DNA of 64,000 bases, from the NCBI GenBank assembly GCA_964490365.1, contig CAZBAG010000003.1, forward strand, positions 18,116-82,115, written 5' to 3'. The translations under genes and the position numbers were made by a program. The DNA is from an uncultured Candidatus Saccharibacteria bacterium (lineage in GTDB: Bacteria; Patescibacteriota; Minisyncoccia; Phycocordibacterales; CSBR16-119). The notes under the pieces are model-generated. The model searched no databases. It was not told where the DNA came from and saw only the letters and a program-made list of their open reading frames with translations. This document shows positions 47,604 to 64,000 of the stretch, piece by piece (position 1 is the stretch's first letter; each line of letters starts with the position of its first letter).

Positions 47604-47671
47604 GCCATTTTTTTATATTTTACATAGATTTATATAAAAAGAAACCCCAAGAGTTTTTAACTCTTGGGGTG

Positions 47672-48288: not shown

Positions 48289-48552
48289 ATGAATACAAAC
48301 AAAGAAAAGATGGCTCGTCGCCTAAAAATCATTGAAGGTCAGGTTCGAGGTTTAAGAGAGATGGTCGAAAAAGGGACTTACTGCATTGATGTGATTACCC
48401 AAAGCTCTGCAATCAAGCAAGGACTTTCGAATGTCGAGGATATGCTCATGGAGCATCACCTTTCGCATTGTGTAGTGAACCAAATAAAAGGCGGTACTCC
48501 TGATAAGGCTGTCGGTGAAGTTCTTAAGGTTTATAAGTTAAAGCGCAAATAA
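48289..48552 (+). CDS. csoR: CsoR/RcnR-family metal-sensing transcriptional repressor
   Basis: An 87-aa four-helix-bundle family with YCIDV...HLSHC (Cys-His-Cys ligand set). Confidence 0.8.
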   Translation: MNTNKEKMARRLKIIEGQVRGLREMVEKGTYCIDVITQSSAIKQGLSNVEDMLMEHHLSHCVVNQIKGGTPDKAVGEVLKVYKLKRK

Positions 48553-48555
48553 ACT

Positions 48556-50880: not shown

Positions 50881-50885
50881 TTATC

Positions 50886-51917: not shown

Positions 51918-51930
51918 TATAATTCTAATC

Positions 51931-52320
51931 ATGAAAGCAACTATTATTTCAGTCATTGTGGCGGTGTCCCTCATCGGGGGAGCTTTCTTGCTTAGCCGAG
52001 GAAGTTCTAGCGATGATAATTCTATTCCCGCAAACAATGTCAGCATCGTGGATGGAAAACAAATAATCGAGATACGAGCAAAAGGCGGATACCGGCCACG
52101 AAAGAGTATTGCGAAAGCCGGCATGCCTACAGTGTTGCGATTCAATACCGCAGGCACATTCGACTGCTCATCCTCGGTACGCATTCCAAGTCTCAATATC
52201 AGCAAAGGTCTGCTACAGTCAGGTTCTACTGACATAGATATTGGTACCGGAAAGCTGGGAACACTTCAGGGTTCATGCGGAATGGGCATGTATCCGTTTG
52301 AAGTTGAGTTTCAAAGTTAA
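51931..52320 (+). CDS. Small secreted cupredoxin-like protein
   Basis: Signal anchor followed by a beta-rich domain with Cys and Met ligand candidates (FDCSSS...GSCGMGMYPFEVEF). Confidence 0.45.
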   Translation: MKATIISVIVAVSLIGGAFLLSRGSSSDDNSIPANNVSIVDGKQIIEIRAKGGYRPRKSIAKAGMPTVLRFNTAGTFDCSSSVRIPSLNISKGLLQSGSTDIDIGTGKLGTLQGSCGMGMYPFEVEFQS

Positions 52321-52346
52321 TTATTATTAATGTAAATTAAAAATAT

Positions 52347-52715
52347 ATGACAACAAATAAAAAATTAGAATGGATATTGAGGATTGGTGTAGCCGGTGAA
52401 TTTTTGGGGCATGGTATTTTCGCACTTCAAGGTAAAGCTGATTGGATAAAGTGGACACAGCAGCTTTCAGGTATGGAAGCCTCAACTGCTACAACTTTTA
52501 TTTTTATCGTCGGTCTCGTCGATGTTCTCTTGGCTATTCTGGTTCTAGTAAAACCGGTCCGTCCCATCCTACTTTGGATGGCATTTTGGGGGTTTTGGAC
52601 AGCGCTTGTTCGCCCGCTAGTCGGAATGCCTATATGGGATTTCATCGAGCGTTTCGCTAACTGGGCAGCACCGTTGGCTCTCTACTACGTTTATAGAGTG
52701 AACAAGGATAAGTAG
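52347..52715 (+). CDS. DoxX-like small membrane protein
   Basis: A 122-aa protein with 3-4 transmembrane segments. Confidence 0.35.
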   Translation: MTTNKKLEWILRIGVAGEFLGHGIFALQGKADWIKWTQQLSGMEASTATTFIFIVGLVDVLLAILVLVKPVRPILLWMAFWGFWTALVRPLVGMPIWDFIERFANWAAPLALYYVYRVNKDK

Positions 52716-52720
52716 CTTGT

Positions 52721-52960
52721 TTAAGGTACAAAGTTTGCAGCCTTCTCAGTTGCAGCATCTTTAGCAGGTTGGACTTGTTCGTGCCAACAAACGTCTATAT
52801 CCCATCTGATTGGCCATTCAAATACACAATTAGTTACAAATCGATAAGCAAATATGCAAATAAAGCTGACAGCGAAAATACTTATAAAAAGTATCCACTG
52901 GAACTTTTCAAATTCAGTCATTTTCTTTTCTCTGTGTCTGTGAAATCTGCGACGACTCAT
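52721..52960 (-). CDS. Small membrane protein, hypothetical (79 aa), last gene of the minus-strand operon headed by the RelA/SpoT-fusion gene
   Basis: Overlaps the upstream ORF by 4 nt (operon-like). One transmembrane segment. Confidence 0.3.
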   Translation of the reverse strand: MSRRRFHRHREKKMTEFEKFQWILFISIFAVSFICIFAYRFVTNCVFEWPIRWDIDVCWHEQVQPAKDAATEKAANFVP

Positions 52961-53271
52961 AGTATTGGATTATTATTTTCGTCCACTCGATGATATTTTT
53001 CTTTAAGAATTTTCGTGAATTCATCAAGTTCAGTTTTACTAACCCACTTAGCATTGTAGAATTTTACAAACGCAAACCACTCTTCAGTTGTTGGAGTAAA
53101 GAAGTGAACCATATTGTTTGCGTACTGATCATCCCATGTCCGAATATCAACTCTGCCGTAGGCCCAGTCTCTGATTTTAGGATTTATCAGGGTCGGATCA
53201 GTCCAACCTTGTTCCACAAATATCAGTTGGAATTTGTCTTTGTATTCAGCTGGAGTTTCTTGATCGTTCAT
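52957..53271 (-). CDS. Hypothetical 104-aa protein immediately downstream of the RelA/SpoT-fusion gene
   Basis: Same strand, 77-bp gap to the 974-aa gene. Trp/acidic-rich. No family was recognised. Confidence 0.35.
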   Translation of the reverse strand: MNDQETPAEYKDKFQLIFVEQGWTDPTLINPKIRDWAYGRVDIRTWDDQYANNMVHFFTPTTEEWFAFVKFYNAKWVSKTELDEFTKILKEKYHRVDENNNPIL

Positions 53272-53348
53272 GTCCGCATTTTAACTTCAAACAAAAGATT
53301 AGTGAATGAATGGTAAAAATAGGGTTCCATTCACTGGTTTTATTGAAA

Positions 53349-56273
53349 TTAAGGGCCAAACTCTCGTTTTCGAATCTCAACACCCTCCTCGGCTCGTTTT
53401 CGTTCGTGCATGATTCTTACGTTAAGGTATTTTTCGTATTCCACAGCAAAATTCTTTACGGCGGTATGAGGATCGGTCTTAAGTTTCTGTGCATCCGCTT
53501 TCTTTGCTTCGTAGGCTGTTACAAAACCGTCTTCTCCCATGACTACACCTGTTTGAGAAAGACTACCGAATAGCGAACCCCGAATCTCATCATATTTGGC
53601 ATGGTCATGGTATTTTTTAGCGATTGCTTTTACTACGCCAAATAGAAAATCCTCCCCTTGGCGTTTATTAATTATGGATAAAACTATATCCAGTTCTTCT
53701 TTTCCACCATTATTTACAAGATCAACCAGGGACTGCTCAAAGGTGGGGCTGAAACTTGAAAAGATTTCTTCCAAAAGATGGCTAGCTTCCCATCGAAACA
53801 ACCATTTGTTTTTCTTGCCACCTTTACTGAACCATGCCAAAAGCATAGGTATAATTTTTGTCTCATTTTTCTTTAAGGCAGCATTGAGTTTGTGAAAATT
53901 AAAGGGAACAGCATCGTATCTGTCATATATGTTTCTCTCACGTTTTGATTTAAGTTCGACTCTTTTGTAGAAAAAATCAATTATCTTTTCAGGATACTTT
54001 TCAGCAAGCGGCATCAGAACCTCCTCGATATGATAGTCGATGTGTGGGAACATCAATAAGTTTTCAACAAGTACGTCAAAGTCTTTTTCAGAAAAATCCT
54101 TTAAAATAGATTCTCCTCGAAACCAGACGTTCTGAATCCACCAGTAGTTTTTATTTTTTGTAAGCTCTTTAAGTGTCTTTATAAATAAAGCTCTCGTGTT
54201 TTTATATTTTGGGTAGTTTCTGACTATTGAACCTGTGATGTTGTTAAGGGCTTGCAAATCCTTCTTTGCTTTTGCCTTAGTGAATATTTTATTCAAGATT
54301 TTTCCATCAATTTCTTCCACATAGTCAAATAGGCGTGCTGAAACCGCTAAATGCTTATCATCCATGGTCCATTCACTGACAATCTGTTTTGCCTTCTTCT
54401 TTTGAGGGCCTGACCAAATTCCAGCTATAAGGTGAATGAGAAACGGATCAAGCTCTGGAGTATCGATGAGTTGCAGAGCAAGGTTGGTTTTTTGCTTTCC
54501 AAGCTCATAAAGGAATTTGTTGAAATATTGAAATTCGCCTGGCTCGACGCTGGAGTAGTTTTTAATAATTTTTAGAATTTTAAGTTTCCATTCAGGAATA
54601 TTTTCCTGGGTAATATCCTGCACATATTGAGATACCTGATTGTTTCTTGTTTTTGCTGCTTTACCCCAATCCATTTCCTCGTCAAAACGTCCATCATAGC
54701 CAACAAGCACTCTGTACATTTGGTAATCCTGATTTGAGTGGATTATGGCATCTAAATCTCCAATACGAGCAAAAGACTCTCTCTTAAATCTCCTTATAAG
54801 CCAGTATGACTGCTCCTCAATTTCTTTCATGATCTCATTTTCAGCAGATGGGAGTATAGAAATATAAAAATCAATTAGCTCATTAGTGTTTTCGATAATG
54901 ACCTTCTCCATTTCTTCGTTCTTTTCTCCTCGATCTGAAGTGTAAGATGCTTGCTGTAGTCTTTTCAGCACTTTCTCTTTTAGACTGACGCTGGGAGCAA
55001 GGAAGTAGAGCTTTTTACCAAGTGCCAGCGTTCTTTTTCTGACCTCGAGAAGTGGTTTGTCGGGGTGTAAGGCTCCGAAATGAAAAGTGAATGTTTTATA
55101 ATCAGTCATCTCATGACCCTCAAAAGAAGGGTCGAGAAGGTGACCAACTGCTTCGGCAGCAAGATCAAATCGTTTTAATGTCTCAGCTTCACTCCACGCT
55201 TCAATTTTTTCCAAAAGAAGAATTTGCATTTGATATCCTATCTGTTTCAATGCCCTAAGATCGTACTGTGCAAAATGCTCGAATACTTTCAATACCTTTG
55301 CTTTAATATCCTTGTCTGTATCTTCAGCAATCTCTGCTAACAAATCAAAAGCTTCTATTGGTCTATGAAATCTAAGTTTTTCGATTATATCGAGACACAC
55401 GATTGCCACATCTTTATATGAATGACCGGCAAGCTTACCAAAAGGGGTCTCCATTGGCTCAGTTTTGGTATTTTTTGCTTTGGCGATTACAGCTTTAATT
55501 ATCGTTGCCGCATTAAGGTGTTCTGGAGTCTTGTCTCCAAATTCTTCGATGTATTTTAAAAGGAGCTTTAAATTTTCGTGCAATTCATTATTTGATTTTG
55601 AATCAAGTACGCTCTTAAGAAAGGACTCGTCAAAGATTTTTTTACCTTCCTTTACCTTTTGAATCTCTTTTGCAATGAAGTCAAAAGTATACTGGGCTTC
55701 CTTGATATGATTCTTCATCGTATCTGCCAGGCGTTTTTGTAGAGATTCAAAGGTATGTGAATCAAAGTTTTTGATTTCATCATCAGGTTTATAGGTAGAA
55801 TCATGAGCCATTTCTGACCATGCATGATAAAGGACTGTGGTGAGCTGAATTTCGCATTTTAGTCCATTGAATCTTTGATACTTTGCTGATTTCAAAAGGT
55901 CGTCTTTTAATTTAACAATCAAATGTGATGCATTGTAACCATCTGTAGAAAATCTAAGGTTATGTTTGACAACCTCGAATTCTTTGAATAACAGGTTTGC
56001 AAATCTATCAATATTATCTGTATAAAAAATAACTCTGCAGCCAGAAAGATCATCTATTTCAAGTAAATCTTTAACATTTACCTTGCCACTCTCCAGCTTT
56101 CTTTTTAAGTGATCAGGGTCTTTTTCTCTACTTGCAACCATTTGGTATCCAAATGATTCATTTTTTAATATACTCTCCAAAATTGATTTTACTTCGAGAG
56201 CAAAATCATGAAAGTCCTCCTTTCTCTTTTTATAGCTTTCAATTAAGGTTTTAATATTTTCTTCTTTTGACAT
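53349..56273 (-). CDS. 974-aa protein with an N-terminal RelA/SpoT-type nucleotidyltransferase (alarmone-synthetase-like) domain fused to an approximately 800-aa all-helical C-terminal region
   Basis: RelA/SpoT synthetase-fold motifs are present: DDLSGCRVIFY (compare DxxGxRVI), YNASHLIVKL (compare YRSLHTAV) and CEIQLTTVLYHAWSEMAHDSTYK (compare EIQIRTxxMHxxAExGxAAHWxYK). The remainder is helical with no recognised domain. Confidence 0.75.
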   Translation of the reverse strand: MSKEENIKTLIESYKKRKEDFHDFALEVKSILESILKNESFGYQMVASREKDPDHLKRKLESGKVNVKDLLEIDDLSGCRVIFYTDNIDRFANLLFKEFEVVKHNLRFSTDGYNASHLIVKLKDDLLKSAKYQRFNGLKCEIQLTTVLYHAWSEMAHDSTYKPDDEIKNFDSHTFESLQKRLADTMKNHIKEAQYTFDFIAKEIQKVKEGKKIFDESFLKSVLDSKSNNELHENLKLLLKYIEEFGDKTPEHLNAATIIKAVIAKAKNTKTEPMETPFGKLAGHSYKDVAIVCLDIIEKLRFHRPIEAFDLLAEIAEDTDKDIKAKVLKVFEHFAQYDLRALKQIGYQMQILLLEKIEAWSEAETLKRFDLAAEAVGHLLDPSFEGHEMTDYKTFTFHFGALHPDKPLLEVRKRTLALGKKLYFLAPSVSLKEKVLKRLQQASYTSDRGEKNEEMEKVIIENTNELIDFYISILPSAENEIMKEIEEQSYWLIRRFKRESFARIGDLDAIIHSNQDYQMYRVLVGYDGRFDEEMDWGKAAKTRNNQVSQYVQDITQENIPEWKLKILKIIKNYSSVEPGEFQYFNKFLYELGKQKTNLALQLIDTPELDPFLIHLIAGIWSGPQKKKAKQIVSEWTMDDKHLAVSARLFDYVEEIDGKILNKIFTKAKAKKDLQALNNITGSIVRNYPKYKNTRALFIKTLKELTKNKNYWWIQNVWFRGESILKDFSEKDFDVLVENLLMFPHIDYHIEEVLMPLAEKYPEKIIDFFYKRVELKSKRERNIYDRYDAVPFNFHKLNAALKKNETKIIPMLLAWFSKGGKKNKWLFRWEASHLLEEIFSSFSPTFEQSLVDLVNNGGKEELDIVLSIINKRQGEDFLFGVVKAIAKKYHDHAKYDEIRGSLFGSLSQTGVVMGEDGFVTAYEAKKADAQKLKTDPHTAVKNFAVEYEKYLNVRIMHERKRAEEGVEIRKREFGP

Positions 56274-56289
56274 GAATATTTGTTTACGT

Positions 56290-56308
56290 GTTGATAACTG
56301 GGGTTGAT
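56290..56308. promoter_or_regulatory. Direct repeat GTTGAT-N7-GTTGAT in the 65-bp divergent promoter region, just upstream of a TATAAT box (56327-56332): candidate operator for the LexA-fusion protein
   Basis: GTTGATAACTGGGGTTGAT. It lies between the RelA/SpoT-fusion start (56273, minus strand) and the LexA-methylase start (56339). Confidence 0.35.
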
Positions 56309-56338
56309 GACTTTCTATTTATTTTCTATAATATCACC

Positions 56339-57799
56339 ATGATTACAAAGAAGCAAAAAAGTGTCCTAGATTTCATCACTGATTATCAAAAGAGTAAGGG
56401 GTATGCTCCCGCTCTTGAGGAGATAAGGAAGAAATTTAAACTTGCTTCTGTTTCAACTGCTCATCATCATGTGACAAAGCTTCGTGATTTGGGATATCTT
56501 GAGAAAGAAGAGAACAAACCTAGAGCAATTGATATCGTGGATAGAGAGATGATGGTAAAAATCCCTCTTCTTGGAACTATTGCAGCAGGACAACCCATTG
56601 AAGCTATACAAAATAAAGAGACTATTGCTGTGGCTAAAAGCAAAATACCTTCCTCTTCTGAGGTCTATGCTTTACGTGTTGTCGGAAATAGTATGATTGA
56701 GGAAAATATTAATGATGGAGACATTATTTTAGTAAAAAATCAGCAGACAGCAGAGAATGGACAGAAAGTTGTAGCTCTTATAGATAATCAAGAAACAACA
56801 CTAAAGAAATTTTATAAAGAAAAAGGACATATTCGACTCCAGCCAGCAAATAAGGATATGGAACCTCTTATTTTTAAGAGTACTAAAGATGTATCTGTTC
56901 AAGGCGTAGTGCTTGATGTGATAAAAGAACAAAGGTCCCTTCCTCTAGAGTTACCAGAACAAAAAGAATTAGAAAAATTTAAGGAACTTCCTTTAAATAA
57001 ATTTATATGTGGTGACGCGATACATTATCTTCGAAGACTACCAGATAGGTCAGTAGATCTAATTGTCGCAGATCCTCCTTACAATCTTTCTAAGGGAAGT
57101 AATATCCGTTTTGATAACCAAGTTAATAAACTTAAGGGTTTTGGTGGTACCTGGAATAAAGTTATGGAGCAATGGGATAGCATGCCAATGGCGGATTATT
57201 TTGAATTTACTATTAAGTGGGTACAGGAAGCAAAAAGAGTTTTAAAACCTACAGGTTCTATATGGGTATTTGGAACTTACCACAATATTGGAATTATTAA
57301 CTTTATTTTCCAAACTCTCGGCATCGAAATTATCAATGAAGTAGTTTGGTATAAACGTAATGCTTTTCCAAATCTAGCAGGGCGAAGATTTACAGCAAGT
57401 CACGAGACATTATTGTGGGGTCATGTTGGAAATGAAAAGAGACAATATTACTTTGACTATAAACAATCTAAAAGTTATGCAGACCCTTCTGATTTATTAA
57501 AGGCGGGAGGAAAACAGATGCGTACTGTTTGGGATATTCCAAACAACAAAGGAGCCGGGGAGATTAGCTTTGGTAAGCACCCAACCCAAAAACCATTGAG
57601 TGTTTGTAAAAGGATAATCTCTTTAACTTCTAAACCAGGTGATGTTGTCGTAGCTCCTTTTGGAGGTGCTGGAAGTGAGTGTGTTGCAGCAAAAGAATTA
57701 GGTAGAAATTATTTAGGGTTTGAGCTTGATCAGCAGTATGTGGATATAGCACAGAAACGACTTTCAGCTGTTCGTAATCAAGATACACTTTTCTCATAA
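56339..57799 (+). CDS. Fusion of a complete LexA-type repressor (wHTH plus S24 autopeptidase) to an N6-adenine/N4-cytosine DNA methyltransferase (beta class, DPPY)
   Basis: LexA half: wHTH (LEEIRKKFKLASVSTAHHHVTKLRDLGYLE), cleavage site LLGTIAAGQP, Ser motif LRVVGNSM and Lys motif QKVVALIDNQETTLKKF. Methylase half: DLIVADPPYN (motif IV), a VVVAPFGGAGSE C-terminal AdoMet motif, beta-class order. Start taken at ATG 56339. Confidence 0.85.
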   Translation: MITKKQKSVLDFITDYQKSKGYAPALEEIRKKFKLASVSTAHHHVTKLRDLGYLEKEENKPRAIDIVDREMMVKIPLLGTIAAGQPIEAIQNKETIAVAKSKIPSSSEVYALRVVGNSMIEENINDGDIILVKNQQTAENGQKVVALIDNQETTLKKFYKEKGHIRLQPANKDMEPLIFKSTKDVSVQGVVLDVIKEQRSLPLELPEQKELEKFKELPLNKFICGDAIHYLRRLPDRSVDLIVADPPYNLSKGSNIRFDNQVNKLKGFGGTWNKVMEQWDSMPMADYFEFTIKWVQEAKRVLKPTGSIWVFGTYHNIGIINFIFQTLGIEIINEVVWYKRNAFPNLAGRRFTASHETLLWGHVGNEKRQYYFDYKQSKSYADPSDLLKAGGKQMRTVWDIPNNKGAGEISFGKHPTQKPLSVCKRIISLTSKPGDVVVAPFGGAGSECVAAKELGRNYLGFELDQQYVDIAQKRLSAVRNQDTLFS

Positions 57800-57803
57800 T
57801 GTC

Positions 57804-58610
57804 ATGATTCTAAAACCCTTTATAAAATGGACCGGAAGTAAACGGTCCCAAGCTGAAGAAATAACCTCTTATTTTCCTAAAGAGATTGATACTTACTACG
57901 AACCGTTTTTAGGTAGTGGTGCAATTTTAGGACATCTGAAACCAAAAAAGGCTGTAGGTGGAGATGTAAATAAACCCCTCATTGAGCTTTGGAAAATATT
58001 GAAGGAAGATCCAGAAAAAGTTGCAAAGGAGTATACAAAACATTGGCAATCATTACAGGATGAGGGTCACTTATATTTCTATAAAATAAGAGAACGGTTC
58101 AATAAAAAGCAATCACCAATAGACTTTCTTTTTCTAACCAGGACATGTGTAAATGGTCTTATTCGCTATAACAAAAATGGAGAATTTAATAATTCACTAC
58201 ACCATACACGTAAGGGAATGAATCCTGAGCAACTAAGAAAGATCATTCTTCAGTGGGCTATTCTTATTAAAAGCTACAGATTTTCAGATCAATCTTACGA
58301 GATAACAACAAAAGACGCTGGTAAAAATGATTTTGTGTATCTGGACCCTCCTTATGCAAACACTGGGACTAGATATTTTGGAGGAATCGATTATGACAAT
58401 TTCATTAGTTACCTTGAACAGTTAAATAAGAAGGGTATAAAATTCGCTCTTTCATTTGACGGTACCAGAGGAGATAAATCCTTTGTCGTTGAGATTCCAA
58501 AACATTTATACAAACGGCACATTCTCGTTCACTCGGGAAACTCTGCTTTTAATAAGGTCCAGAACGGAAAGGTGGAGAAAGTTCACGAATCTCTTTACCT
58601 GAATTATTGA
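57804..58610 (+). CDS. Dam-family (D12 class) N6-adenine DNA methyltransferase
   Basis: FIKWTGSKRS, YYEPFLGSGAI (AdoMet site) and LDPPYANTG motifs in alpha-class order. Confidence 0.85.
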   Translation: MILKPFIKWTGSKRSQAEEITSYFPKEIDTYYEPFLGSGAILGHLKPKKAVGGDVNKPLIELWKILKEDPEKVAKEYTKHWQSLQDEGHLYFYKIRERFNKKQSPIDFLFLTRTCVNGLIRYNKNGEFNNSLHHTRKGMNPEQLRKIILQWAILIKSYRFSDQSYEITTKDAGKNDFVYLDPPYANTGTRYFGGIDYDNFISYLEQLNKKGIKFALSFDGTRGDKSFVVEIPKHLYKRHILVHSGNSAFNKVQNGKVEKVHESLYLNY

Positions 58611-60625
58611 TGCAGCACTAAACTAATAATTCCCTTAAATCTATCAGCAAGTTTTTGAAGGGTCGGAATAAGTATAAGCCCAGTCTCTTTTGCTGTTATA
58701 TGTATTATGGTCACCTTATTATCGGTGTTAAATTCTACACCCAGAGCAATATCAGATTTGCTTACCTTTAAGGTTGATTTCAGATCTTTTTCATTTTGAT
58801 AGCGAAAAGCAACACCAGATAAACCAGCCAGGTCGTTAGTATATTCATCTACAGTTCTTAACCAATCGTCTTTACTATACTCACGAAAAGCTATTGGTTT
58901 TTTACTTAAAAGCGCGTGTACATATTTTATCAATCGCGGCCCAATACTTTTCTCTAATGTAAAAGATGTATCTTTCGATTCCATCGAGAGTAAAATCTTA
59001 TCGTTTATGAATTGTATGATGTGGTCTGGCCGTTTAGAAGATTTACCAGATACTCTTGGAAGCGAAGTCCATCGCAATTCTAGTTTCTTGGTAGGTTCGT
59101 AAATGCTTATGCCACTCCAATCGCCACCTGGCGGATTACACAATGATTCATATACTCCTTGCGTTAACGCATTTGAGAAAAGTAGATGCAATACAGCATC
59201 AACATCATGTTCACCAAAATTAGGTATTTCTTTTGATGCAGGTAGAGCCTTCTTTTCAAACACCTTATCGTTTGGACTAACTAAAAGGCCATAATTTTTC
59301 AGTGAACTACTTGTACTACTATCCACTAGTATTCCATTACTAAGATTAACGATTGCTTCCCAAAGTCCATTAATTGAAGCAAGTTTTCTCATATCTTTTT
59401 CAAGCAAGGTCCAAGTAGATTGTTTGGCAGGACCATATACTACAGTAAGCAAATCTACATCTTCAATTCCAAATATCATTCGAGCTAAGGGAACTAGTCC
59501 TCGATCAGGTCGAGAGTCGTCACCTCGAGGTTTAAAGCCGGCTACCCAGACACAGACTAAAGGTTTTTCAGATTTTGAAACCCATTGAATGAACTCTGCA
59601 CCAGCCTTTTCGCCATAGATTCTAGTGATTTCTTTGCCAAATTCTGCCCGTTTATCGGTGGGGATAATACATATTGGCATTTCTCTAGAACCTATCGCTC
59701 TGGCCCCATTCTTTATAGTTGTTTCGAGTAGATTCTTAAAAGTGGGCGTTAGAGTTTTGATACCAGTTTTCTTATTCCATGGCATTGCTTTTTTAATCAA
59801 CCAGTTTAACTTTTCTGCACCAGTTTTTTGAGAATAAAGTTCGGTCCATTCAGTTGCAGTCAGAACATCTGATCTTTTACGCTGTGTGGTAAGTATCTCT
59901 AAAATTTTAAGAACCTTTGTCTCGACTTGAGTGTGCGCTTCCTTAAAATCAGTCGAAAGCAAAATTCCTCTCACTATTTCAATTGATTCCTTTGTTCCAA
60001 AGCAATCTTTAAAAATCTCAATGATTTTCTGATCGCTAGATGGACTTGGTATATAAACGGGTAGTGACACCGAATTCCTACTTGCACCTAATACTGCATA
60101 CGCAAATGGAACTAGTGGGTTTGGAAATCGTGCAGCCTTAATTTTTCGATCCGAATCGAGCTCCTGGCCACCTAATTCAGTAAAATACAAATAAGGGATA
60201 CCAGCATATGCCAAAGCAAGAGCTCGCCCTGTTCTTTGCCACGCATTATTGCCTGCAGGGAGTGCCCCACTGAATTCTAGAGCTAGAATAGGAACCTCAC
60301 ACTCTTCTCCTCCACTTATTTCTAATTTTGTAATAATTGCATCAGGAGCTTCTCGCAAGCTTCCGCCAAGAGATGCGATATGATCTGTAAGCGCAAAATT
60401 CCAACGACCATAACCCGCAAAAAACTGTACTGTAAAATCCTCACCGTTTCCGGCAATGAATTTGTATTTTGGAGCGAAGGCCGGTCCAGATATTAATTCT
60501 GGCTGGCTACCACCTAAAGAATTTACTATAAGCTTTAATGCGCTCTCACATTCTAAAATATTGTCTCCATGGATACGCAACTGGTGCTGGGTCATTGAAA
60601 TGTATTGAAAAATATTGTATTTCAA
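58604..60625 (-). CDS. Putative restriction endonuclease partner of the two methyltransferases (673 aa, family not recognised)
   Basis: Convergent with, and overlapping by 7 nt, the Dam-like gene. Large enough for an enzyme cleaving outside its site or a fused specificity domain. The call rests on position only. Confidence 0.4.
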   Translation of the reverse strand: MKYNIFQYISMTQHQLRIHGDNILECESALKLIVNSLGGSQPELISGPAFAPKYKFIAGNGEDFTVQFFAGYGRWNFALTDHIASLGGSLREAPDAIITKLEISGGEECEVPILALEFSGALPAGNNAWQRTGRALALAYAGIPYLYFTELGGQELDSDRKIKAARFPNPLVPFAYAVLGASRNSVSLPVYIPSPSSDQKIIEIFKDCFGTKESIEIVRGILLSTDFKEAHTQVETKVLKILEILTTQRKRSDVLTATEWTELYSQKTGAEKLNWLIKKAMPWNKKTGIKTLTPTFKNLLETTIKNGARAIGSREMPICIIPTDKRAEFGKEITRIYGEKAGAEFIQWVSKSEKPLVCVWVAGFKPRGDDSRPDRGLVPLARMIFGIEDVDLLTVVYGPAKQSTWTLLEKDMRKLASINGLWEAIVNLSNGILVDSSTSSSLKNYGLLVSPNDKVFEKKALPASKEIPNFGEHDVDAVLHLLFSNALTQGVYESLCNPPGGDWSGISIYEPTKKLELRWTSLPRVSGKSSKRPDHIIQFINDKILLSMESKDTSFTLEKSIGPRLIKYVHALLSKKPIAFREYSKDDWLRTVDEYTNDLAGLSGVAFRYQNEKDLKSTLKVSKSDIALGVEFNTDNKVTIIHITAKETGLILIPTLQKLADRFKGIISLVLHQ

Positions 60626-60788
60626 TTCTACTTCAATTTCTTCATTTTTCCTATCTGGATCAAAGCGCCGCCGAATTAGCCCCTAAATTGCCCTGTGTAC
60701 GCTTTTCGCAGCATGTTCAGGGCTTTTTACGTTCCTGGACCAATACCCTCAAATTTGCACATATTCGGACCTACACTTAAAAGGTCCT

Positions 60789-61060
60789 AAAAGTAATGCA
60801 CACCGATTTGCATATTTTATGGCATTAGGATTACAGCAGTCCTTTAGGGCAAAAGTAATGCACCATTTTTTGCTCTTTTGGGACAGTACGATTACAGCAA
60901 TCCTTTAAGGTAAAAGTAATTCCTATATTTAGACACTTTTGCATCTATAGGATTAAGTAGTTCTTTGGTCCAAGTAATTCCTGCAGTTAGAAAATTATAG
61001 GACCTTAGAATAAACAAATCGGCGATCCAAAAGTAATGCACGCAATTTTGCACGAAATTG
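60789..61060. repeat. Iteron-like array: 4-5 degenerate tandem units of about 60 bp, each containing AAAAGTAATGCAC and (C)GATTACAGCARTCCTTTARGG
   Basis: AAAAGTAATGCAC occurs at 60789, 60851 and 61029, with variants AAAAGTAATTCC at 60912 and AAGTAATTCC at 60972. GATTACAGCAGTCCTTTAGGG is at 60830 and GATTACAGCAATCCTTTAAGG at 60891. An interlocking hairpin lies at 61088-61136. Confidence 0.55.
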
Positions 61061-61326
61061 GATCTACGATACATAACACTTCCAGTTGCGCGGAAAGAGC
61101 TGAGTCACTCGCAACTGGGACTCAGCTCTTTCTGTTTTCAGGAAGTCTGATACAAGGTCGAACACCCTCATGCTAAGCAAACAAGCCCTAGAAGAATATA
61201 AGGAAATTCATAAGCAGGAAACCAATACGATCCTAGCTGATGAAGTCTTGCTTGATGAGGCAATTAATCTCCTCACGCTTTTTGATCGCGTCTATCGGCC
61301 GATCAAGAAAGTGTGGCTACAAGAAT

Positions 61327-62238
61327 ATGGAAGGAATCACACTCGATCCAGAATGGGAACTACCAAACAGAAAAGAAGAGATTGCGCATCAGTATCATCT
61401 GAAGAAAATACAAGAACTTCAACAGATGGTAGATCGGTCCAAGTTGCGGGGTAAACGCAGGGTCACACGATTTTTTGTCGATAATGAATATGTGGAGAAC
61501 GGCTATATGGAAAAATTGCCGAAGCTCTGTACCTTGGTGTATCAAGGACTCTTATATCATGGCAATACCGAAACGCAGACAGCGTGGCCGAGTTTTAAGA
61601 AACTCACCGGACACACTGGAGAAAAGAATCGAAACTACATATCAAATGCTCTTCGGTTGCTCAAAGAGTGCGGCATCATTGGTGTGGTCCAGTGCAAGAA
61701 AGGATTTAAAACCTTAAACCTTTACTATTTTCAGTCGACCGAATATTGGATTAGTCTCGAACATACTACTAAACGTCTTAAGCTTACCGATAGCCTTGCG
61801 CAGTATCCAAACGTGACCCTCCGTAGTATCAAAAGACGTGGTGTCCGTAGGAAGAACGTTGATACTCTAACTAACCAAATAAATAACAATCCGAATTCTG
61901 TAACTAGCATCGGAGATGTCTTAGCAAGGAGAATGCAGAAATGGCAGAAAAGCCCAGAGGTTGCTATTCCAGAGGGTTCTCGCAATACTGTCGTTCGCAC
62001 AGCATATGAGGGAGATGTAGAGGTAAGTACCATACACTTAGATAGCCCAGATATACCCGAGGAAAATGGTGAAAAAACGGTACTCCGTAGTGTTCCAGAA
62101 GATACCACGCAGGTTCCCGTAATAACGGGAAATTTACGGGAAAAAATCGCTGAATTGGATACCACGCAAACACACCATGAATTAGCCCTAGAAGACATAA
62201 CCAAAGAAGATATTGGACCAGGTAGCGCAACATTATAA
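61327..62238 (+). CDS. Winged-helix replication-initiator-like protein (HTH_36/RepA-like)
   Basis: LVYQGLLYHGNTETQTAWPSFKKLTGHTGEKNRNYISNALRLLKECGIIGV reads as a Rep-type winged helix. Start taken at ATG 61327. An overlapping upstream ORF 61170-61454 lies in another frame. Confidence 0.45.
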   Translation: MEGITLDPEWELPNRKEEIAHQYHLKKIQELQQMVDRSKLRGKRRVTRFFVDNEYVENGYMEKLPKLCTLVYQGLLYHGNTETQTAWPSFKKLTGHTGEKNRNYISNALRLLKECGIIGVVQCKKGFKTLNLYYFQSTEYWISLEHTTKRLKLTDSLAQYPNVTLRSIKRRGVRRKNVDTLTNQINNNPNSVTSIGDVLARRMQKWQKSPEVAIPEGSRNTVVRTAYEGDVEVSTIHLDSPDIPEENGEKTVLRSVPEDTTQVPVITGNLREKIAELDTTQTHHELALEDITKEDIGPGSATL

Positions 62239-63874
62239 AACCATGAATAAAACACAACCAATCAAATACTTTCTCTATGCCCGTAAATCGAGCGAGGCAG
62301 AAGATCGACAAGCAGCATCCATCGATGCTCAAAAGGACGAACTCTTAAAGATCGCTAAAGAACAAGGGCTGGTTATCGTTGATATCTTGGAAGAATCACA
62401 ATCAGCCAAGAAGCCAGGAAGACCAGTATTCAACAAAATGCTTGAGAGAATCTATAAAAGCGAAGCCAACGGTATTGTATGTTGGAAATTGGACCGACTA
62501 GCCCGTAATCCAGTAGACGGTGGACAGATAAGTTGGATGTTGCAGCAGAGTGTGATAGCTCAGATTGTTACCTTCGGCCGAACGTATTATCCAACTGACA
62601 ACGTTCTCATGATGCAGGTTGAGCTTGGAATGGCCAACCAATACATCCGAGATCTTTCAGTAAACGTAAAGAGAGGACTCGCTAAGAAGGTCAGAGAAGG
62701 TTGGCTTCCAAGCGGGGCACCGATTGGGTACATGAGCACACCCGATAGAGATAAAGGATTTAAAACAATCAGTATCGATCCAAACCGATTCCCAGTGGTC
62801 CGCAGACTCTTTGACCTTATGCTTACCGGCACTTACACTGTGGCTCAAATTTGGAATATATCCCGTAAGGAGTTGAATTTGAAAACATATCAGCGAAGAA
62901 ATATTGGTGGTAAGCATCTTTCAAAAAGTGCAGTGTATGCAATTTTAAGCAATCACTTTTACTACGGATGGTTTGAGTACCCATATAAAAGCGGAGAATG
63001 GCATAAGGGCGCACATGAGCCGATGATTACCGAAGATGAGTTTAATAAGGTTCAAGTACTTATGGGGCGCAAGACAACTCCTCGGCTTGAGAAGAATTTA
63101 AGTTTTGCTTTTACAGGGCTTATGAAGTGCGGCACCTGTGGTTGTAGTATTACGGCTCAAGCCAAAGTTAAGCGATGTAAGAATGGCAACGTCCACCATT
63201 ATGTCTACTACAACTGCACCAAGAAGAAAGTCGATACCAACTGTCCAGAGCGATGTGTCGAACTAAAGGATCTGACACTCGATATCAAAGAAAAAATAAG
63301 TGAGATCACTATTTCAGAAAAGTTTAAGAACTGGGCTATCAAGCATCTCCATGTAATGAGAAAGAATGAAGCTGACAGTGATACGTTGGTCCTTAAAGGA
63401 AAGCATAAAGAACTTGAAGAAGTTACTAAGAATTTGCAGTCACTTACGCTTAATTTCACCTCACCAAAGAACCAAGACCGATTATTGATATCTGATGATG
63501 AATACCAGAACCTCAAAGCCGGAATGGTTAAACGAAAGCTAATTCTTGAAGATGAGCTCAAGGTCCAAAAGAAACAGGTCCTTGAGTGGGTGGAACTTAC
63601 CGAGCGAACCTTTGATTTTGCATGTTATGCCCATATTTGGTTTGAAAAAGGAGACGATAAGACGAGGAGGGCGATACTTTCATGTTTAGGCTCGAACCTC
63701 ACCCTAAAAGGCAAAAAACTCTTTGTTAATTACCATTCTTTCATCAAGACGATGATGAAAAGTCGTCAGGCGGTTGAAGAAGAATTAGAGAAGGTTAGAA
63801 CCTCTGAAAAGCGAGTCTATAAAAGACAAAACCCCACAAATCGTGAGGTTTCGTCACTAGGGCTCCCCGAGTAG
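62213..63874 (+). CDS. Large serine recombinase (resolvase catalytic domain, recombinase domain and zinc ribbon)
   Basis: N-terminal YARKSSEAEDRQAASIDAQ...CWKLDRLARN with the catalytic Ser, a recombinase domain and a CGTCGC...YYNC zinc ribbon. The protein is 553 aa. The last five codons are templated by a tRNA 3'-end-like sequence. Confidence 0.9.
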   Translation: MDQVAQHYKTMNKTQPIKYFLYARKSSEAEDRQAASIDAQKDELLKIAKEQGLVIVDILEESQSAKKPGRPVFNKMLERIYKSEANGIVCWKLDRLARNPVDGGQISWMLQQSVIAQIVTFGRTYYPTDNVLMMQVELGMANQYIRDLSVNVKRGLAKKVREGWLPSGAPIGYMSTPDRDKGFKTISIDPNRFPVVRRLFDLMLTGTYTVAQIWNISRKELNLKTYQRRNIGGKHLSKSAVYAILSNHFYYGWFEYPYKSGEWHKGAHEPMITEDEFNKVQVLMGRKTTPRLEKNLSFAFTGLMKCGTCGCSITAQAKVKRCKNGNVHHYVYYNCTKKKVDTNCPERCVELKDLTLDIKEKISEITISEKFKNWAIKHLHVMRKNEADSDTLVLKGKHKELEEVTKNLQSLTLNFTSPKNQDRLLISDDEYQNLKAGMVKRKLILEDELKVQKKQVLEWVELTERTFDFACYAHIWFEKGDDKTRRAILSCLGSNLTLKGKKLFVNYHSFIKTMMKSRQAVEEELEKVRTSEKRVYKRQNPTNREVSSLGLPE

Positions 63875-63895
63875 GATTCGAACCTACGGCCAATC
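63866..63895 (-). repeat. Truncated tRNA 3' end (T-arm plus acceptor 3' strand) on the minus strand, abutting the recombinase stop: probable attachment-site core
   Basis: The reverse complement reads GTAGG-TTCGAAT-CCTAC-TCGGGGA-G. No compatible 5' half was found in the remaining 105 nt of the window. Confidence 0.45.
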
Positions 63896-64000
63896 GATTA
63901 CATGTATCCTAAAATTACTTAAAGGCATGGACTATATCATCACCATGTTCCAAATGGAATTTAGGTGCAAGGCGCTTCGATTTTGAATTTCAAAACCTAC

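What the first reader, a model, noticed from the sequence alone, without database searches (positions are those of the whole stretch)
52721..63895. About 11-kb integrative island: defence cargo, iteron/Rep replication module, large serine recombinase and a tRNA 3'-end scar
From the end of the copper operon onward, gene orientation and content change abruptly. The island carries the RelA/SpoT-fusion operon and the LexA-methylase/Dam/endonuclease module. It also carries a 540-bp non-coding stretch with four or five roughly 60-bp tandem repeat units and an interlocking hairpin, a winged-helix Rep-like gene and a 553-aa serine recombinase. The final codons of the recombinase are templated by a truncated tRNA 3' end on the opposite strand. 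Together this reads as an integrative, possibly also autonomously replicating (plasmid-like), element whose right boundary is the tRNA fragment. The left boundary and the cognate intact tRNA were not found in the window.
Basis: partly seen in the sequence, partly recalled or inferred. Interest (0 to 1): 0.6.

Follow-up and report, generated by a model that had tools for sequence, protein, structure and literature searches.

The report
Serine-recombinase island at intron-split tRNA-Asn
This is a real mobile genomic island in a Patescibacteria (CPR) genome, but it is about 15.8 kb rather than 11 kb and includes the copper operon. It is inserted by a large serine recombinase just past the end of an intact, intron-containing tRNA-Asn gene, and the insertion splits off the last 45 codons of the recombinase gene itself.

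Summary
Two of the conclusions are wrong.

1. **The "tRNA 3'-end scar" is not a scar.** It is the 3' exon of an intact tRNA-Asn(GUU) split at position 35/36 by a group I intron that runs off the window.
2. **The left boundary is 48,092, not 52,721.**
   - The island spans 48,092-63,865 (15,770 bp). attL and attR share only a 4-bp core, GCTC.
   - attR is the recombinase 3' end plus an element-borne terminator, joined to tRNA nt 74-71.
   - attL is the orphaned native tRNA terminator (48,061-48,087) joined to a 47-codon ORF, which is the detached 3' end of the recombinase gene.
   - Three other contigs and several database proteins carry the same recombinase fused in frame to this tail (attP-type junction).

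**Family evidence.** At least 10 close relatives (82-97% recombinase identity) sit at tRNA-Asn in hosts whose flanking housekeeping proteins are only about 30-59% identical. Each carries a different cargo. More distant relatives abut other tRNAs.

**Cargo here.** A copper operon, an alarmone-synthetase fusion and a type II restriction-modification system with a LexA-methylase fusion.

**The "Rep/iteron" module.** It is conserved, but replication is unproven. The interlocking hairpin is a covariation-supported leader RNA.

The parts
48061..48087 (-). Orphaned native terminator of tRNA-Asn (the B arm of attL). It is a minus-strand hairpin plus T-run with no minus-strand gene feeding it.
   Evidence: One of the three best terminator-like sites in 47.5-64 kb (12 pairs). 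The same terminator-then-GCTC layout is seen at attL of L128, L231 and L152, and at the unoccupied attB-like site of L131.
48092..48095 (+). attL core GCTC, the left end of the island.
   Evidence: Four-way att table. GCTC is the only sequence shared by the attL, attR, attP-type and attB-like junctions.
48093..48233 (+). Detached 3' end of the recombinase gene (45-aa tail LDLVHEVVTFW...IPN...RPTAEEM; listed as a 47-aa ORF from TTG 48090). It also forms the P' arm of attP.
   Evidence: It is fused in frame to the recombinase in L231, L233 and L234 and in proteins P0011, P0024, P0316 and P0320. Homologous tails lie at the far-left end of islands L128, L134, L152 and L231. Joining the two pieces reconstructs a 596-aa ORF.
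48253..52715 (+). Cargo slot 1: copper module. It comprises a promoter with a CsoR-type palindrome (48262-48279), csoR (48289-48552), copA P-type ATPase (48556-50880), an HMA-DsbD_2 protein (50886-51917), a cupredoxin (51931-52320) and a DoxX-like protein (52347-52715).
   Evidence: Pfam hits and promoter scan. The module lies between attL and attR.
52721..53271 (-). Two small ORFs (79 aa and 104 aa) with no family match. They lie inside the island.
   Evidence: They are contiguous with both neighbours in every contig of this population.
53301..53335 (.). Conserved hairpin AGTGAATG...CCATTCACT flanked by A and T runs. It separates the two cargo slots and is probably a bidirectional terminator.
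   Evidence: nhmmer E about 1e-14 in window, L128, L130 and L135, and 2e-4 in L134. It directly follows the tail ORF in L128.
53349..56273 (-). 974-aa protein with an N-terminal RelA/SpoT-type small-alarmone-synthetase domain and a long C-terminal extension. It is a candidate toxSAS-type defence or toxin gene.
   Evidence: PDB RelQ/RelP E 7e-6 to 5e-5, PADLOC PDC-S33 2.7e-10 and phrog_9640 2.9e-25.
56288..60625 (.). Type II restriction-modification module. It comprises a LexA(wHTH+S24)-N6/N4 methylase fusion (likely start 56339, to 57799, +), a Dam-class methylase (57804-58610, +) and a restriction enzyme (58604-60625, -).
   Evidence: Pfam. PADLOC MTase_II 5.6e-107 and 1e-72, REase_II 1.7e-123. 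NCBIfam lexA 3.5e-54.
60670..61069 (+). Start of the conserved backbone. It holds a terminator-like hairpin (about 60690-60727) and five AAGTAAT(GCAC/TTCCT) repeats spaced 58-62 bp, which are candidate binding sites for the HTH_36 protein.
   Evidence: Homology to L130 starts exactly at 60670 (89% over 3.28 kb). The motif is present in 1-5 copies at the same place in all 11 elements examined and is enriched against shuffles.
61082..61132 (+). Leader RNA with two interlocked helices (A 9 bp, B 14 bp followed by a U-run). It is a likely terminator/antiterminator switch ahead of the recombination operon.
   Evidence: Across 9 distinct sequences, 100% of 207 cells are paired. 9 of 23 pairs carry compensatory double changes, against at most 1 in the slid controls. 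G-U pairs place the structure on the + strand RNA. There is no Rfam match.
61170..61454 (+). Small conserved protein (94-aa ORF with a conserved core of about 55 aa). It is a candidate regulator or recombination directionality factor.
   Evidence: tblastn hits in 29 related loci. No family match.
61327..62238 (+). HTH_36 winged-helix protein (303 aa), the "Rep-like" gene. Its DNA-binding domain spans about residues 53-136 and its C-terminal half is disordered.
   Evidence: PF13730 hits in 13/13 family members. AlphaFold pLDDT 84-91 for the wHTH. Foldseek best matches include RTP, RepA_N initiators, DnaD-N and Orc1, but all have E >= 0.014.
62213..63874 (+). Large serine recombinase, integrated-state allele (553 aa). 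Its last 3 codons and stop are read from tRNA sequence.
   Evidence: Pfam. PDB A118 integrase and SPbeta SprA about 3e-9 for the close homologue P0011. The AlphaFold model of P0011 shows catalytic, recombinase and zinc-ribbon domains plus a coiled coil.
63825..63865 (.). P arm of attR. It carries the element-borne minus-strand terminator (63855-63825) that now terminates the tRNA, followed by the attR core GCTC (63862-63865, tRNA nt 74-71). This is the right end of the island.
   Evidence: Best terminator in the region (14 pairs). The 43 nt are 93% identical among elements, against 76% for the adjoining tRNA 20 nt. att table.
63861..63900 (-). 3' exon of tRNA-Asn(GUU), covering U36 to the encoded CC. 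This is host DNA and forms the B' arm.
   Evidence: In 7 intron-less relatives the tRNA keeps 7/7 acceptor pairs and 5/5 T-stem pairs.
63901..64000 (-). 3' part of a 561-nt group I intron at tRNA position 35/36. It continues beyond the window and carries a 111-aa HNH ORF there.
   Evidence: Rfam RF00028 scores 17.8 bits when truncated in the window and 72.7 bits, E 2e-18, in L001. HNH PF01844. This matches Nakagawa et al. 2026.

Best explanation
Window 48,092-63,865 is one 15,770-bp integrative island of a Patescibacteria (CPR) bacterium.

- Strand exchange happened inside a 4-bp core, GCTC (tRNA nt 71-74).
- The tRNA therefore stays entirely host-encoded and functional.
- It only exchanges its native terminator, now stranded at 48,061-48,087, for a terminator carried on the island's right end (63,825-63,855).

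**Split recombinase gene.** attP lies inside the recombinase gene.
- In the free (or head-to-tail) form the gene encodes about 596 aa.
- Integration cuts off the last 45 codons and leaves them at the far-left end of the island (48,093-48,233).
- The resident allele ends after three tRNA-templated codons.
- Excision would rejoin the gene and restore tRNA plus native terminator.

**Layout.**
- The right 3.2 kb is a conserved backbone. It holds an insulating hairpin, five spaced binding-site repeats, a structured leader RNA, a small protein, an HTH_36 winged-helix protein and the recombinase.
- The rest is exchangeable cargo in two slots. Here slot 1 is the copper operon plus two small ORFs. Slot 2 is an alarmone-synthetase fusion plus a type II restriction-modification system.

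**Shown versus inferred.**
- Shown: the junction architecture, the split gene, horizontal spread with cargo turnover, and the intact tRNA.
- Inferred: current mobility, the role of the tail, whether the HTH_36/repeat module replicates the excised circle or only regulates it, and the route of cell-to-cell transfer.
For: **Intact target tRNA.** L001 is identical to the window. The intron scores 72.7 bits. The spliced product is tRNA-Asn. The 35/36 site matches published, experimentally spliced Patescibacteria introns.

**Family at the same site.** The close relatives examined (L128-L136) place the recombinase 3' end against tRNA-Asn. Cargo differs entirely between them.

**Horizontal spread.** Recombinases are 82-92% identical. 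The flanking host proteins are far less so: Def 46-59%, Fmt 42-50%, PriA 30-44%, S30AE 34-47%.

**Crossover position.**
- The last 43 nt of the element are 93% identical across 9 elements.
- The next 20 nt (the tRNA 3' end) are only 76% identical, yet always pair perfectly with the host 5' half.

**Split gene.**
- L231, L233 and L234 join ...GTCACTAGG|GCTC|GAC... in frame to the tail.
- Within one 90%-identity cluster, the tailed forms (P0011, P0316, P0320) and the tRNA-read-through forms (P0314, P0315) coexist.
- Detached tails lie at the far-left, same-strand end of L128, L134, L152, L231 and the window.
- Six weaker tail hits in clades that target other tRNAs are all on the same strand as the recombinase and to its left.

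**Other junction features.**
- attP has the inverted-repeat layout TCGTG-N7-GTC-N10-GAC-N6-CACGA around the core.
- An orphan minus-strand terminator abuts the attL core.
- L131 carries an unoccupied terminator-GCTC-tRNA junction of the same form as the attB reconstructed for the window.

**Breadth.** 42 of 81 related loci have an intact tRNA abutting the recombinase end, and 12 more have a T-arm motif there.
Against: - No empty-site allele was found for this genome. All 7 contigs of this population carry the island's left junction.
- No contig with circular overlap was found.
  - At least one attP-type junction sits on a 148-kb contig (P0320).
  - L231 carries two diverged tail copies.
  - So these junctions may come from tandem arrays rather than free circles.
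- A tandem P-core-P' junction is not what canonical attP x attB recombination yields.
- Base composition does not set the island apart: 39.7% against 39.2% GC.
- The copper block could have entered an older island separately.
- The window itself shows only the last 100 nt of the intron. The tRNA 5' exon comes from another assembly of the same population and lacks its first 4 nt.
Confidence: 0.78

Rival explanations
1. An 11-kb island spans 52,721-63,895. Its right boundary is a displaced, truncated tRNA 3' fragment, and the intact tRNA and the matching direct repeat lie elsewhere in the genome.
For: Gene orientation changes at 52,716-52,721. ARAGORN finds no tRNA at the right end of the window.
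Against: The fragment is the 3' exon of an intact intron-split tRNA-Asn. No repeat of it exists in 64 kb; the best match has 7/20 mismatches. Nothing conserved marks 52,721. The detached recombinase tail and the orphan terminator lie at 48,061-48,233.
Confidence: 0.03
2. Composite of two accreted elements. An older island (tail + copper operon + small ORFs) lost its backbone. A younger 10.6-kb island begins at the conserved hairpin (53,301). Only the outer att sites survive.
For: The hairpin follows the tail directly in L128, but lies 1.4 kb after it in L134 and 5.1 kb after it in the window. Tandem arrays do exist in this family (L231 with two tails; P0320 on a 148-kb contig). The copper block has higher GC (42.2%) than the defence cargo (36.9%).
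Against: There is no internal att core, P arm or second tail between 48,233 and 63,825. The hairpin is not joined to a P arm in any locus. A two-slot cargo layout explains the same facts without a deletion.
Confidence: 0.12
3. Crossover in the tRNA T-loop with a ~20-nt direct repeat, as in Dehalococcoides ssrA islands. On this model the tRNA 3' end at 63,861-63,880 is element-derived.
For: There is a perfect 20-nt repeat GGCTCCGGAGACAGGATTCG in L128 (4416 and 11655) and a 16-nt repeat in L167. The published precedent is PMC3146451.
Against: In L131 the same 20-nt repeat flanks a 172-nt insertion that lies between the island and the tRNA. The repeat therefore belongs to that small T-loop insertion, not to the island. 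The tRNA 3' 20 nt co-vary with the host 5' half in 7/7 relatives. No such repeat occurs in the window or in five other loci.
Confidence: 0.03
4. The boundaries are as in the best explanation, but the element is a fixed, no-longer-mobile remnant. The truncated 553-aa recombinase would be inactive or domesticated.
For: The island is present in every contig of this population. The resident recombinase lacks its conserved tail.
Against: All catalytic and DNA-binding domains, both att arms, the tail ORF and the leader RNA are intact. Near-identical recombinases occur in both junction states elsewhere.
Confidence: 0.25
5. The HTH_36 gene plus repeats is a true iteron replicon, so the excised island persists as a plasmid.
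For: The gene and the repeats are conserved together in all relatives. The fold resembles RepA_N, DnaD-N and Orc1 winged helices. One source annotates a homologue as a DnaB/DnaD-type replication initiation protein.
Against: There is no match to any plasmid or phage protein or to any solved Rep sequence. The protein has a single wHTH with no helicase, primase or nuclease domain. The 58-62-bp spacing with an 11-nt core is unlike classic iterons. There are no DnaA boxes and no AT-rich unwinding element. No circular contig was found. An operator array for a repressor fits equally well.
Confidence: 0.35

Closest known systems
Dehalococcoides ssrA-specific genomic islands (DsiB recombinase; McMurdie et al. 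2011, PMC3146451)
   Same: A CcrB-like large serine recombinase sits at the island end next to a tRNA-like gene. Its ORF always runs into the target on the opposite strand, giving variable C-termini. The authors suspected the gene is complete only on the circle. Islands accrete in tandem and carry variable cargo with no conjugation genes.
   Different: There the target is tmRNA, the crossover is in the T-loop with a 20-bp direct repeat, and a second small serine recombinase (DsiA) is present. Here the target is a true tRNA, the crossover lies past the acceptor end with a 4-bp core and no tDNA repeat, there is no second recombinase, and a conserved 45-aa tail is demonstrably split off.
Streptococcal ICEs with a single serine integrase targeting rumA (Ambroset et al. 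2016, PMC4701971)
   Same: The attachment site lies in the 3' end of the serine integrase gene. Integration swaps the 3' ends of the integrase and the target gene, and the repeats are very short.
   Different: Those are conjugative elements inserted in a protein-coding gene, whose C-terminus changes. Here the target is a tRNA that stays unaltered, and the element has no conjugation genes.
Classical tRNA-gene genomic islands (Islander/TIGER type, tyrosine integrases)
   Same: Insertion at the 3' side of a tRNA gene, the integrase gene next to the tRNA, and accessory cargo.
   Different: Those use tyrosine integrases and leave a displaced tRNA fragment as a direct repeat. [quoted passage not shown] Here the enzyme is a serine recombinase and there is no displaced fragment.
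SSV1-type archaeal integrases (from my own knowledge, not checked here)
   Same: attP lies within the integrase gene, so integration partitions the gene.
   Different: Those are tyrosine recombinases of archaeal viruses, and the split separates large N- and C-terminal parts.
Integrative elements carrying their own replicon (PICIs, actinomycete AICEs such as pSAM2; from my own knowledge)
   Same: An integrase next to a DNA-binding initiator-like gene and a repeat array, with cargo beyond.
   Different: Replication is unproven here. The HTH_36 protein has no primase, helicase or rolling-circle domain, and there are no packaging or transfer genes.
Patescibacteria tRNA-Asn group I introns at position 35/36 (Nakagawa et al. 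2026, PMC13011429)
   Same: The same tRNA, the same insertion site and the same failure of standard tRNA finders.
   Different: That paper reports that most such introns lack homing endonuclease genes. This one carries an HNH ORF. No link to integrative islands appears in the paper's abstract or section headings, and its full text was not searched.

Membership tests
Large serine recombinase (serine integrase) | N-terminal resolvase catalytic domain with the conserved Ser/Arg residues | tested here: met
   PF00239 E 4.6e-22. R24, S26, S27, D94, R95 and R98 are invariant in 30 homologues.
Large serine recombinase (serine integrase) | Recombinase domain, zinc ribbon and embedded coiled coil | tested here: met
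   PF07508 3e-9 and PF13408 7.9e-6. A118 and SprA PDB hits for homologue P0011. The AlphaFold model of P0011 has long paired helices at 359-469 flanked by beta-ribbon.
Large serine recombinase (serine integrase) | Short att sites with an inverted-repeat attP and a minimal shared core, with no long direct repeats | tested here: met
   A 4-bp shared core GCTC. The attP inverted repeat is TCGTG-N7-GTC-N10-GAC-N6-CACGA.
Large serine recombinase (serine integrase) | Catalysis of attP x attB integration and factor-dependent excision | not testable with these tools
   Needs biochemistry or junction reads.
Tyrosine-integrase tRNA islands (Islander signature) | Tyrosine recombinase integrase | tested here: not met
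   The only recombinase on the island is of the serine family.
Tyrosine-integrase tRNA islands (Islander signature) | Displaced tRNA fragment as a direct repeat at the distal end | tested here: not met
   The best match in 64 kb has 7/20 mismatches.
Dehalococcoides-type ssrA islands | T-loop crossover with a 20-bp repeat, plus a second small serine recombinase | tested here: not met
   No second resolvase-domain ORF.
Dehalococcoides-type ssrA islands | Recombinase ORF reads through the junction into the tRNA-like target | tested here: met
   C-termini such as ...QDSNL are T-arm read-through.
Iteron-type theta replicon | Initiator belonging to a recognised Rep family | tested here: inconclusive
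   Only PF13730 HTH_36. Foldseek E >= 0.014, with both initiators and plain regulators among the hits. No plasmid, phage or PDB sequence match.
Iteron-type theta replicon | Closely spaced 17-22-bp iterons next to an AT-rich unwinding element and DnaA boxes | tested here: not met
   An 11-nt core every 58-62 bp. No DnaA box. The highest AT content over 40 nt is 72%.
Iteron-type theta replicon | Existence as an extrachromosomal circle | tested here: inconclusive
   attP-type junctions exist, but no contig has terminal overlap and some junctions are chromosomal.
tRNA-Asn with group I intron at 35/36 (Patescibacteria) | Group I core, U before the 5' splice site, G at the intron end, and canonical tRNA after splicing | tested here: met
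   Splicing itself was not tested.
Type II restriction-modification system | Methyltransferase(s) plus cognate endonuclease | tested here: met
   PADLOC MTase_II 5.6e-107 and 1e-72, REase_II 1.7e-123.
Toxic small alarmone synthetase (toxSAS/CapRel-like) defence | RelA/SpoT synthetase fold with a fused or adjacent neutralising domain | tested here: inconclusive
   Weak synthetase matches only. The remaining roughly 720 residues have no match. No Pfam hit at 0.01.

The most novel reading that the evidence does not exclude
The split recombinase gene could be a built-in state sensor that sets directionality.
- The free circle makes the full 596-aa enzyme with the conserved 45-aa tail, which would be integration-competent.
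- The integrated copy makes a tail-less 553-aa enzyme ending in tRNA-templated residues, which would have different activity. It might be competent for excision or for accretion, or it might be silent.
- The covarying leader RNA would gate expression.

If so, a whole clade of serine integrases specialised on tRNA 3' ends would control integration against excision by gene topology rather than, or in addition to, a separate directionality factor. This clade would be the main vehicle of defence and metal-resistance genes in Patescibacteria.
Probability: 0.2. Interest if true: 0.8.

Novelty: new variant of a known kind. Interest (0 to 1): 0.62.

Why it matters
**A new target class for serine integrases.** Serine integrases are textbook users of protein-coding or intergenic targets. 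[quoted passage not shown]
- Here a large clade abuts tRNA 3' ends: Asn, Ser, Trp, Gln, Glu, His, Leu, Arg, Gly and Val.
- 5,295 homologues scored E <= 1e-20, but only about 80 were inspected.
- In the islands with mapped junctions, all at tRNA-Asn, the tRNA stays intact and only its terminator is replaced.

**A view of gene exchange in Patescibacteria.** This gives a concrete, widely distributed vehicle for horizontal gene flow in a phylum with tiny genomes and few described mobile elements. The cargo seen includes restriction-modification systems, Fic proteins, an alarmone-synthetase fusion and metal resistance.

**Testable predictions.** The analysis supplies exact attB, attP, attL and attR sequences and a natural full-length/truncated enzyme pair. 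These can be tested directly and could be of use as new orthogonal integrases.

**A caution for annotation.** Intron-split tRNAs are invisible to tRNA finders and can be mistaken for scars.

Tried and rejected
1. **Search for a direct repeat of the tRNA 3' end.** None was found in the window.
3. **Empty-site search by exact-protein look-ups of left-flank genes.** All contigs carry the island.
4. **Empty-site search via homologues of the purH-like gene left of the island.** The relatives (65-78% identical) share no synteny.
5. **Hypothesis that the conserved hairpin at 53,301 is the left end (P' arm), because TCACTAG/CTAGTGA form a palindrome with the right end.**
   - I held this view through.
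   - I rejected it when L231 showed the recombinase end joined to the 47-codon ORF instead.
6. **T-loop crossover hypothesis from the 20-nt repeat in L128.** L131 and tRNA covariation rejected it.
7. **Viral contig scan.** Only one relative at 44% identity, so the family is not phage-borne in IMG/VR.
8. **Plasmid and phage tblastn, and PDB sequence and profile searches, for the HTH_36 protein.** No matches.
9. **Circularity test of four 9-12-kb contigs.** None has terminal overlap.
10. **AlphaFold of the full-length recombinase, to see where the tail docks.** The tail has pLDDT < 50, so the model is uninformative.
11. **Rfam on 47,550-48,350 for the structured region left of the island.** Only chance-level hits.
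12. **Base composition.** It does not distinguish the island.

Full report
**What is in the sequence.**
  - a 974-aa protein (53349-56273, minus strand);
  - a LexA-DNA-binding + S24 peptidase + N6/N4 methylase fusion (56288-57799);
  - a Dam-class methylase (57804-58610);
  - a 673-aa ORF (58604-60625, minus strand) that PADLOC recognises as a type II restriction enzyme, E 1.7e-123;
  - a 544-bp non-coding stretch;
  - an HTH_36 winged-helix gene;
  - a 553-aa large serine recombinase with Resolvase, Recombinase and zinc-ribbon domains.
- The N-terminus of the 974-aa protein matches small alarmone synthetases only weakly.
- The repeats are real.
  - AAGTAAT(GCAC/TTCCT) occurs five times at 58-62-bp spacing.
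  - The 11-mer occurs four times in 64 kb, all here, against 0.41 expected.

**The "tRNA scar" is an intact tRNA.**
- ARAGORN finds no tRNA at the right end of the window.
- Rfam gives a weak group I intron hit cut off by the window end (17.8 bits).
- A public contig carrying the identical recombinase (L001) matches the window at 11,788 of 11,788 overlapping bases and runs 490 nt further.
- On that contig the intron scores 72.7 bits, E 2e-18.
- The 5' exon ...CGAUAGCUCAGCGGUAGAGCAAUCGACUGU precedes it.
- Removing the 561-nt intron gives a canonical tRNA-Asn(GUU), once the four 5' nucleotides missing from the contig are supplied.
- The intron sits between positions 35 and 36 and carries a 111-aa HNH ORF.
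- Exactly this kind of intron, in exactly this tRNA, has been described and shown to self-splice in Patescibacteria. That paper notes that standard tRNA finders miss such genes (Nakagawa et al. 2026).
- So 63,861-63,900 is the 3' exon of the target gene, not a displaced fragment.

**The island is one of a family.**
- The recombinase has thousands of homologues (5,295 at E <= 1e-20).
- Context look-ups and a metagenome scan gave about 85 loci.
- The closest relatives examined (82-97% identity) have the same three-gene backbone: a small protein, the HTH_36 protein and the recombinase.
- In the close relatives L128-L136 the recombinase 3' end lies against tRNA-Asn on the opposite strand. The tRNA is either intron-less or intron-split.
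- Homology with the window starts abruptly at 60,670 and ends inside the tRNA.
- Everything to the left differs from locus to locus:
  - MvaI/BcnI-type restriction-modification (L128);
  - Fic plus type I or IIG restriction-modification (L129, L130);
  - an AAA ATPase, a large 763-aa protein and a restriction-modification system (L134);
  - a helicase, PIN and Eco57I-like genes (L231);
  - metabolic genes (L232, L233).
- The chromosomal genes on the other side of the tRNA (S30AE, fmt, def, priA) are syntenic in seven hosts, but only about 30-59% identical in protein sequence. The recombinases are 82-92% identical.
- The elements have therefore moved between quite different hosts.
- Across 81 evaluable loci:
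  - 42 have an intact tRNA abutting the recombinase end: 22 Asn, and others Ser, Trp, Gln, Glu, His, Leu, Arg, Gly and Val;
  - 12 more have a T-arm motif there.

**Where the junctions are.** I went through two wrong ideas first.

*Wrong idea 1: a T-loop crossover.*
- L128 has a perfect 20-nt repeat of the tRNA 3' end 7.2 kb upstream, as in classical tRNA islands and in Dehalococcoides ssrA islands.
- In L131 the same 20-nt repeat flanks a 172-nt insertion lying between the island and the tRNA. The repeat therefore belongs to a small T-loop insertion, not to the island.
- Independently, the last 43 nt of the element are 93% identical among nine elements. The adjoining 20 nt of tRNA are only 76% identical, yet pair perfectly with each host's own 5' half: 7/7 acceptor and 5/5 T-stem pairs in all seven intron-less cases.
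- The tRNA is thus host DNA, and the crossover lies at its very end.

*Wrong idea 2: the hairpin at 53,301 as the left end.*
- A 35-nt hairpin at 53,301-53,335 is conserved at the cargo-distal side of five elements. I took it for the left end.
- Contig L231 disproved this. There the recombinase end ...GGTTTCGTCACTAGG is joined to GCTCGACATTG..., which is a small ORF I had already noticed at window 48,090-48,233 and at the far-left of L128 and L134.
- The join is in frame: ...SSLG|LDIAREIGTFWKTNKAHIWIPN...

*What this shows.*
- Two more contigs (L233, L234) show the same fusion. So do database proteins P0011, P0024, P0316 and P0320.
- Within one 90%-identity cluster, the tailed forms coexist with forms that read into tRNA...SSLGLRG and ...SSLGLRRQGSNL.
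- The small ORF is therefore the detached 3' end of the recombinase gene, and attP lies inside that gene.
- Lining up all junctions gives a clean four-way table:

| Junction | Layout |
|---|---|
| attR | P arm - GCTC - tRNA |
| attL | terminator - GCTC - tail |
| attP-type | P arm - GCTC - tail |
| attB-like (L131) | terminator - GCTC - tRNA |

- attP carries the inverted repeat TCGTG-N7-GTC-N10-GAC-N6-CACGA centred on the core, as expected for a serine-integrase site.
- Detached tails lie on the same strand at the far-left of five islands: window 15,770 bp, L128 7,060 bp, L134 11,490 bp, L231 11,851 bp and L152 about 6.1 kb.
- A tail profile finds six weaker examples in clades that use other tRNAs. 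All are on the recombinase strand and to its left.

**Boundaries and content in the window.**
- The attL core is 48,092-48,095 and the attR core is 63,862-63,865.
- Immediately left of attL is a strong minus-strand terminator (48,087-48,061) with no minus-strand gene to terminate. The right end of the element carries another (63,855-63,825) that now follows the tRNA. These are two of the three best terminators in the region.
- The reconstructed empty site reads ...GGUUCGAAUCCUACUCGGGGAGC-AAAGAAAAAG-hairpin-UUUUU, a normal tRNA gene end.
- The reconstructed recombinase is 596 aa.
- The island therefore includes the copper module (csoR with its operator palindrome, copA, the HMA-DsbD_2 protein, the cupredoxin and the DoxX-like protein). 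It also includes the two small ORFs, the hairpin, the alarmone-synthetase fusion, the restriction-modification module and the backbone.
- Composition does not mark it: 39.7% against 39.2% GC.

**The backbone and the replication claim.**
- The HTH_36 protein belongs to a small family. Only 72 homologues were found, all single-domain, and the few named sources are Patescibacteria.
- The AlphaFold model has one confident winged helix and a disordered C-terminal half.
- Foldseek's best matches include replication proteins (RTP, RepA_N initiators, DnaD-N, Orc1) but also ordinary repressors, all at E >= 0.014.
- There is no sequence match to plasmid, phage or solved proteins.
- The repeat motif is conserved in all 11 elements, in 1-5 copies. 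However, the 58-62-bp spacing, the lack of DnaA boxes and the lack of an AT-rich stretch do not look like a classical iteron origin.
- I rate replication of the excised circle at about one in three. An operator array for a repressor is equally consistent.
- The "interlocking hairpin" is a conserved RNA.
  - In nine distinct sequences every one of 207 base-pair cells is paired.
  - 9 of 23 pairs show compensatory double changes, against at most 1 in the shifted controls.
  - G-U pairs place the structure on the + strand transcript.
  - Helix B is followed by a U-run. With no linker between A2 and B2, the two helices can hardly coexist.
  - I read it as a terminator/antiterminator leader for the small-protein/HTH_36/recombinase operon. 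That step is inference.

**Likely mechanism.**
- The circular form expresses the full-length recombinase.
- The enzyme pairs attP (inside its own gene) with the tRNA-Asn end and exchanges strands within GCTC.
- The tRNA keeps all its nucleotides and receives the element's terminator.
- The recombinase loses its tail.
- Excision reverses this.
- Which protein provides directionality is unknown. The 94-aa protein and the tail itself are candidates.
- Tandem junctions (L231, and P0320 on a 148-kb contig) show that islands can stack. This requires either recombination of attP with an occupied site or integration of multimers, and I could not decide which.

**Comparison with known systems.** The closest analogues are two.
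- The Dehalococcoides ssrA islands share the recombinase-runs-into-target feature and the accretion. They differ in target (tmRNA), crossover (T-loop), a 20-bp repeat and a second recombinase.
- The rumA-targeting serine-integrase ICEs of streptococci swap the 3' ends of the integrase and target genes on integration.

A standard reference on tRNA islands says serine integrases are not known to use tRNA genes. My literature searches found no counter-example, but large island databases may contain some.

I therefore file this as a new variant of a known kind.

**Caveats.**
- No empty site or circle was found for this genome.
- The tRNA 5' exon comes from a sister assembly and lacks four nucleotides.
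- The copper block may have joined an older island.
- All functional statements beyond domain content are inferred.

Noticed in passing
window 47672-48055 (minus strand): A roughly 380-nt non-coding transcription unit lies between two strong minus-strand terminators. It has a long closing stem (GGUUGACCGGUGUACC...GGUACACCAACC) and folds at z = -1.95. It has no Rfam match. In relatives at 65% identity, the equivalent position upstream of the purH-like gene holds tmRNA, yet ARAGORN finds no tmRNA anywhere in this window. It could be a divergent structured RNA or a decayed one.
   Followed up: partly
window 47007-47603 (minus strand): The IMP-cyclohydrolase-like (MGS domain) gene is split. 47196-47603 encodes the first 135 aa. 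The continuation, homologous to residues beyond that in the ~195-aa relatives, is in a separate ORF at 47007-47189. This is a frameshift, a premature stop or a sequencing error.
   Followed up: partly
L128 4416-4584; L131 9797-9990: A small insertion (about 150-170 nt) sits in the T-loop of tRNA-Asn, flanked by a perfect 19-20-nt repeat of the tRNA 3' end. It consists of a GC-rich segment, an inverted copy of the T-arm and its own terminator. It lies distal to the recombinase island in L128 and proximal to it in L131, and it regenerates an attB-like site. It may be a miniature or decayed element of another kind.
   Followed up: partly
L001 11890-12225 (minus strand; about 100-440 nt beyond the window end): The tRNA-Asn group I intron carries a 111-aa HNH endonuclease ORF (PF01844, E 2.5e-4). 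[quoted passage not shown]
   Followed up: partly
window 56288-57799: A full-length LexA (DNA-binding domain plus S24 self-cleaving peptidase) is fused to the first methylase of the restriction-modification system. This suggests RecA-triggered cleavage could control the system. A stand-alone LexA-like gene is cargo in another island (L178).
   Followed up: no
window 61327-61454: The small conserved ORF (61170-61454) and the HTH_36 gene (start 61327) overlap by 128 nt. The second gene is in the +1 frame, and the same arrangement occurs in L134. This is either overlapping genes or a programmed frameshift fusion.
   Followed up: no
L135 480-680: Just left of the conserved hairpin there is an array of at least five inverted-repeat units (GCGAAAAATACCTTTTTTGC-like). 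It resembles a second binding-site array inside that island's cargo.
   Followed up: no
window 48262-48279: A perfect 18-bp palindrome ATACCCCCTAGGGGGTAT overlaps the -10 region of the best promoter match in the region. It lies directly upstream of csoR and is a textbook-like CsoR operator.
   Followed up: no
database proteins P0032, P0066, P0070, P0077, P0106, P0107: Many recombinase homologues end in ...QDSNL..., which is the translation of the reverse complement of a tRNA T-arm (CAGGATTCGAACCTG). This peptide is a simple marker of the integrated state and could be used to screen protein databases for tRNA-integrated serine-recombinase islands.
   Followed up: partly
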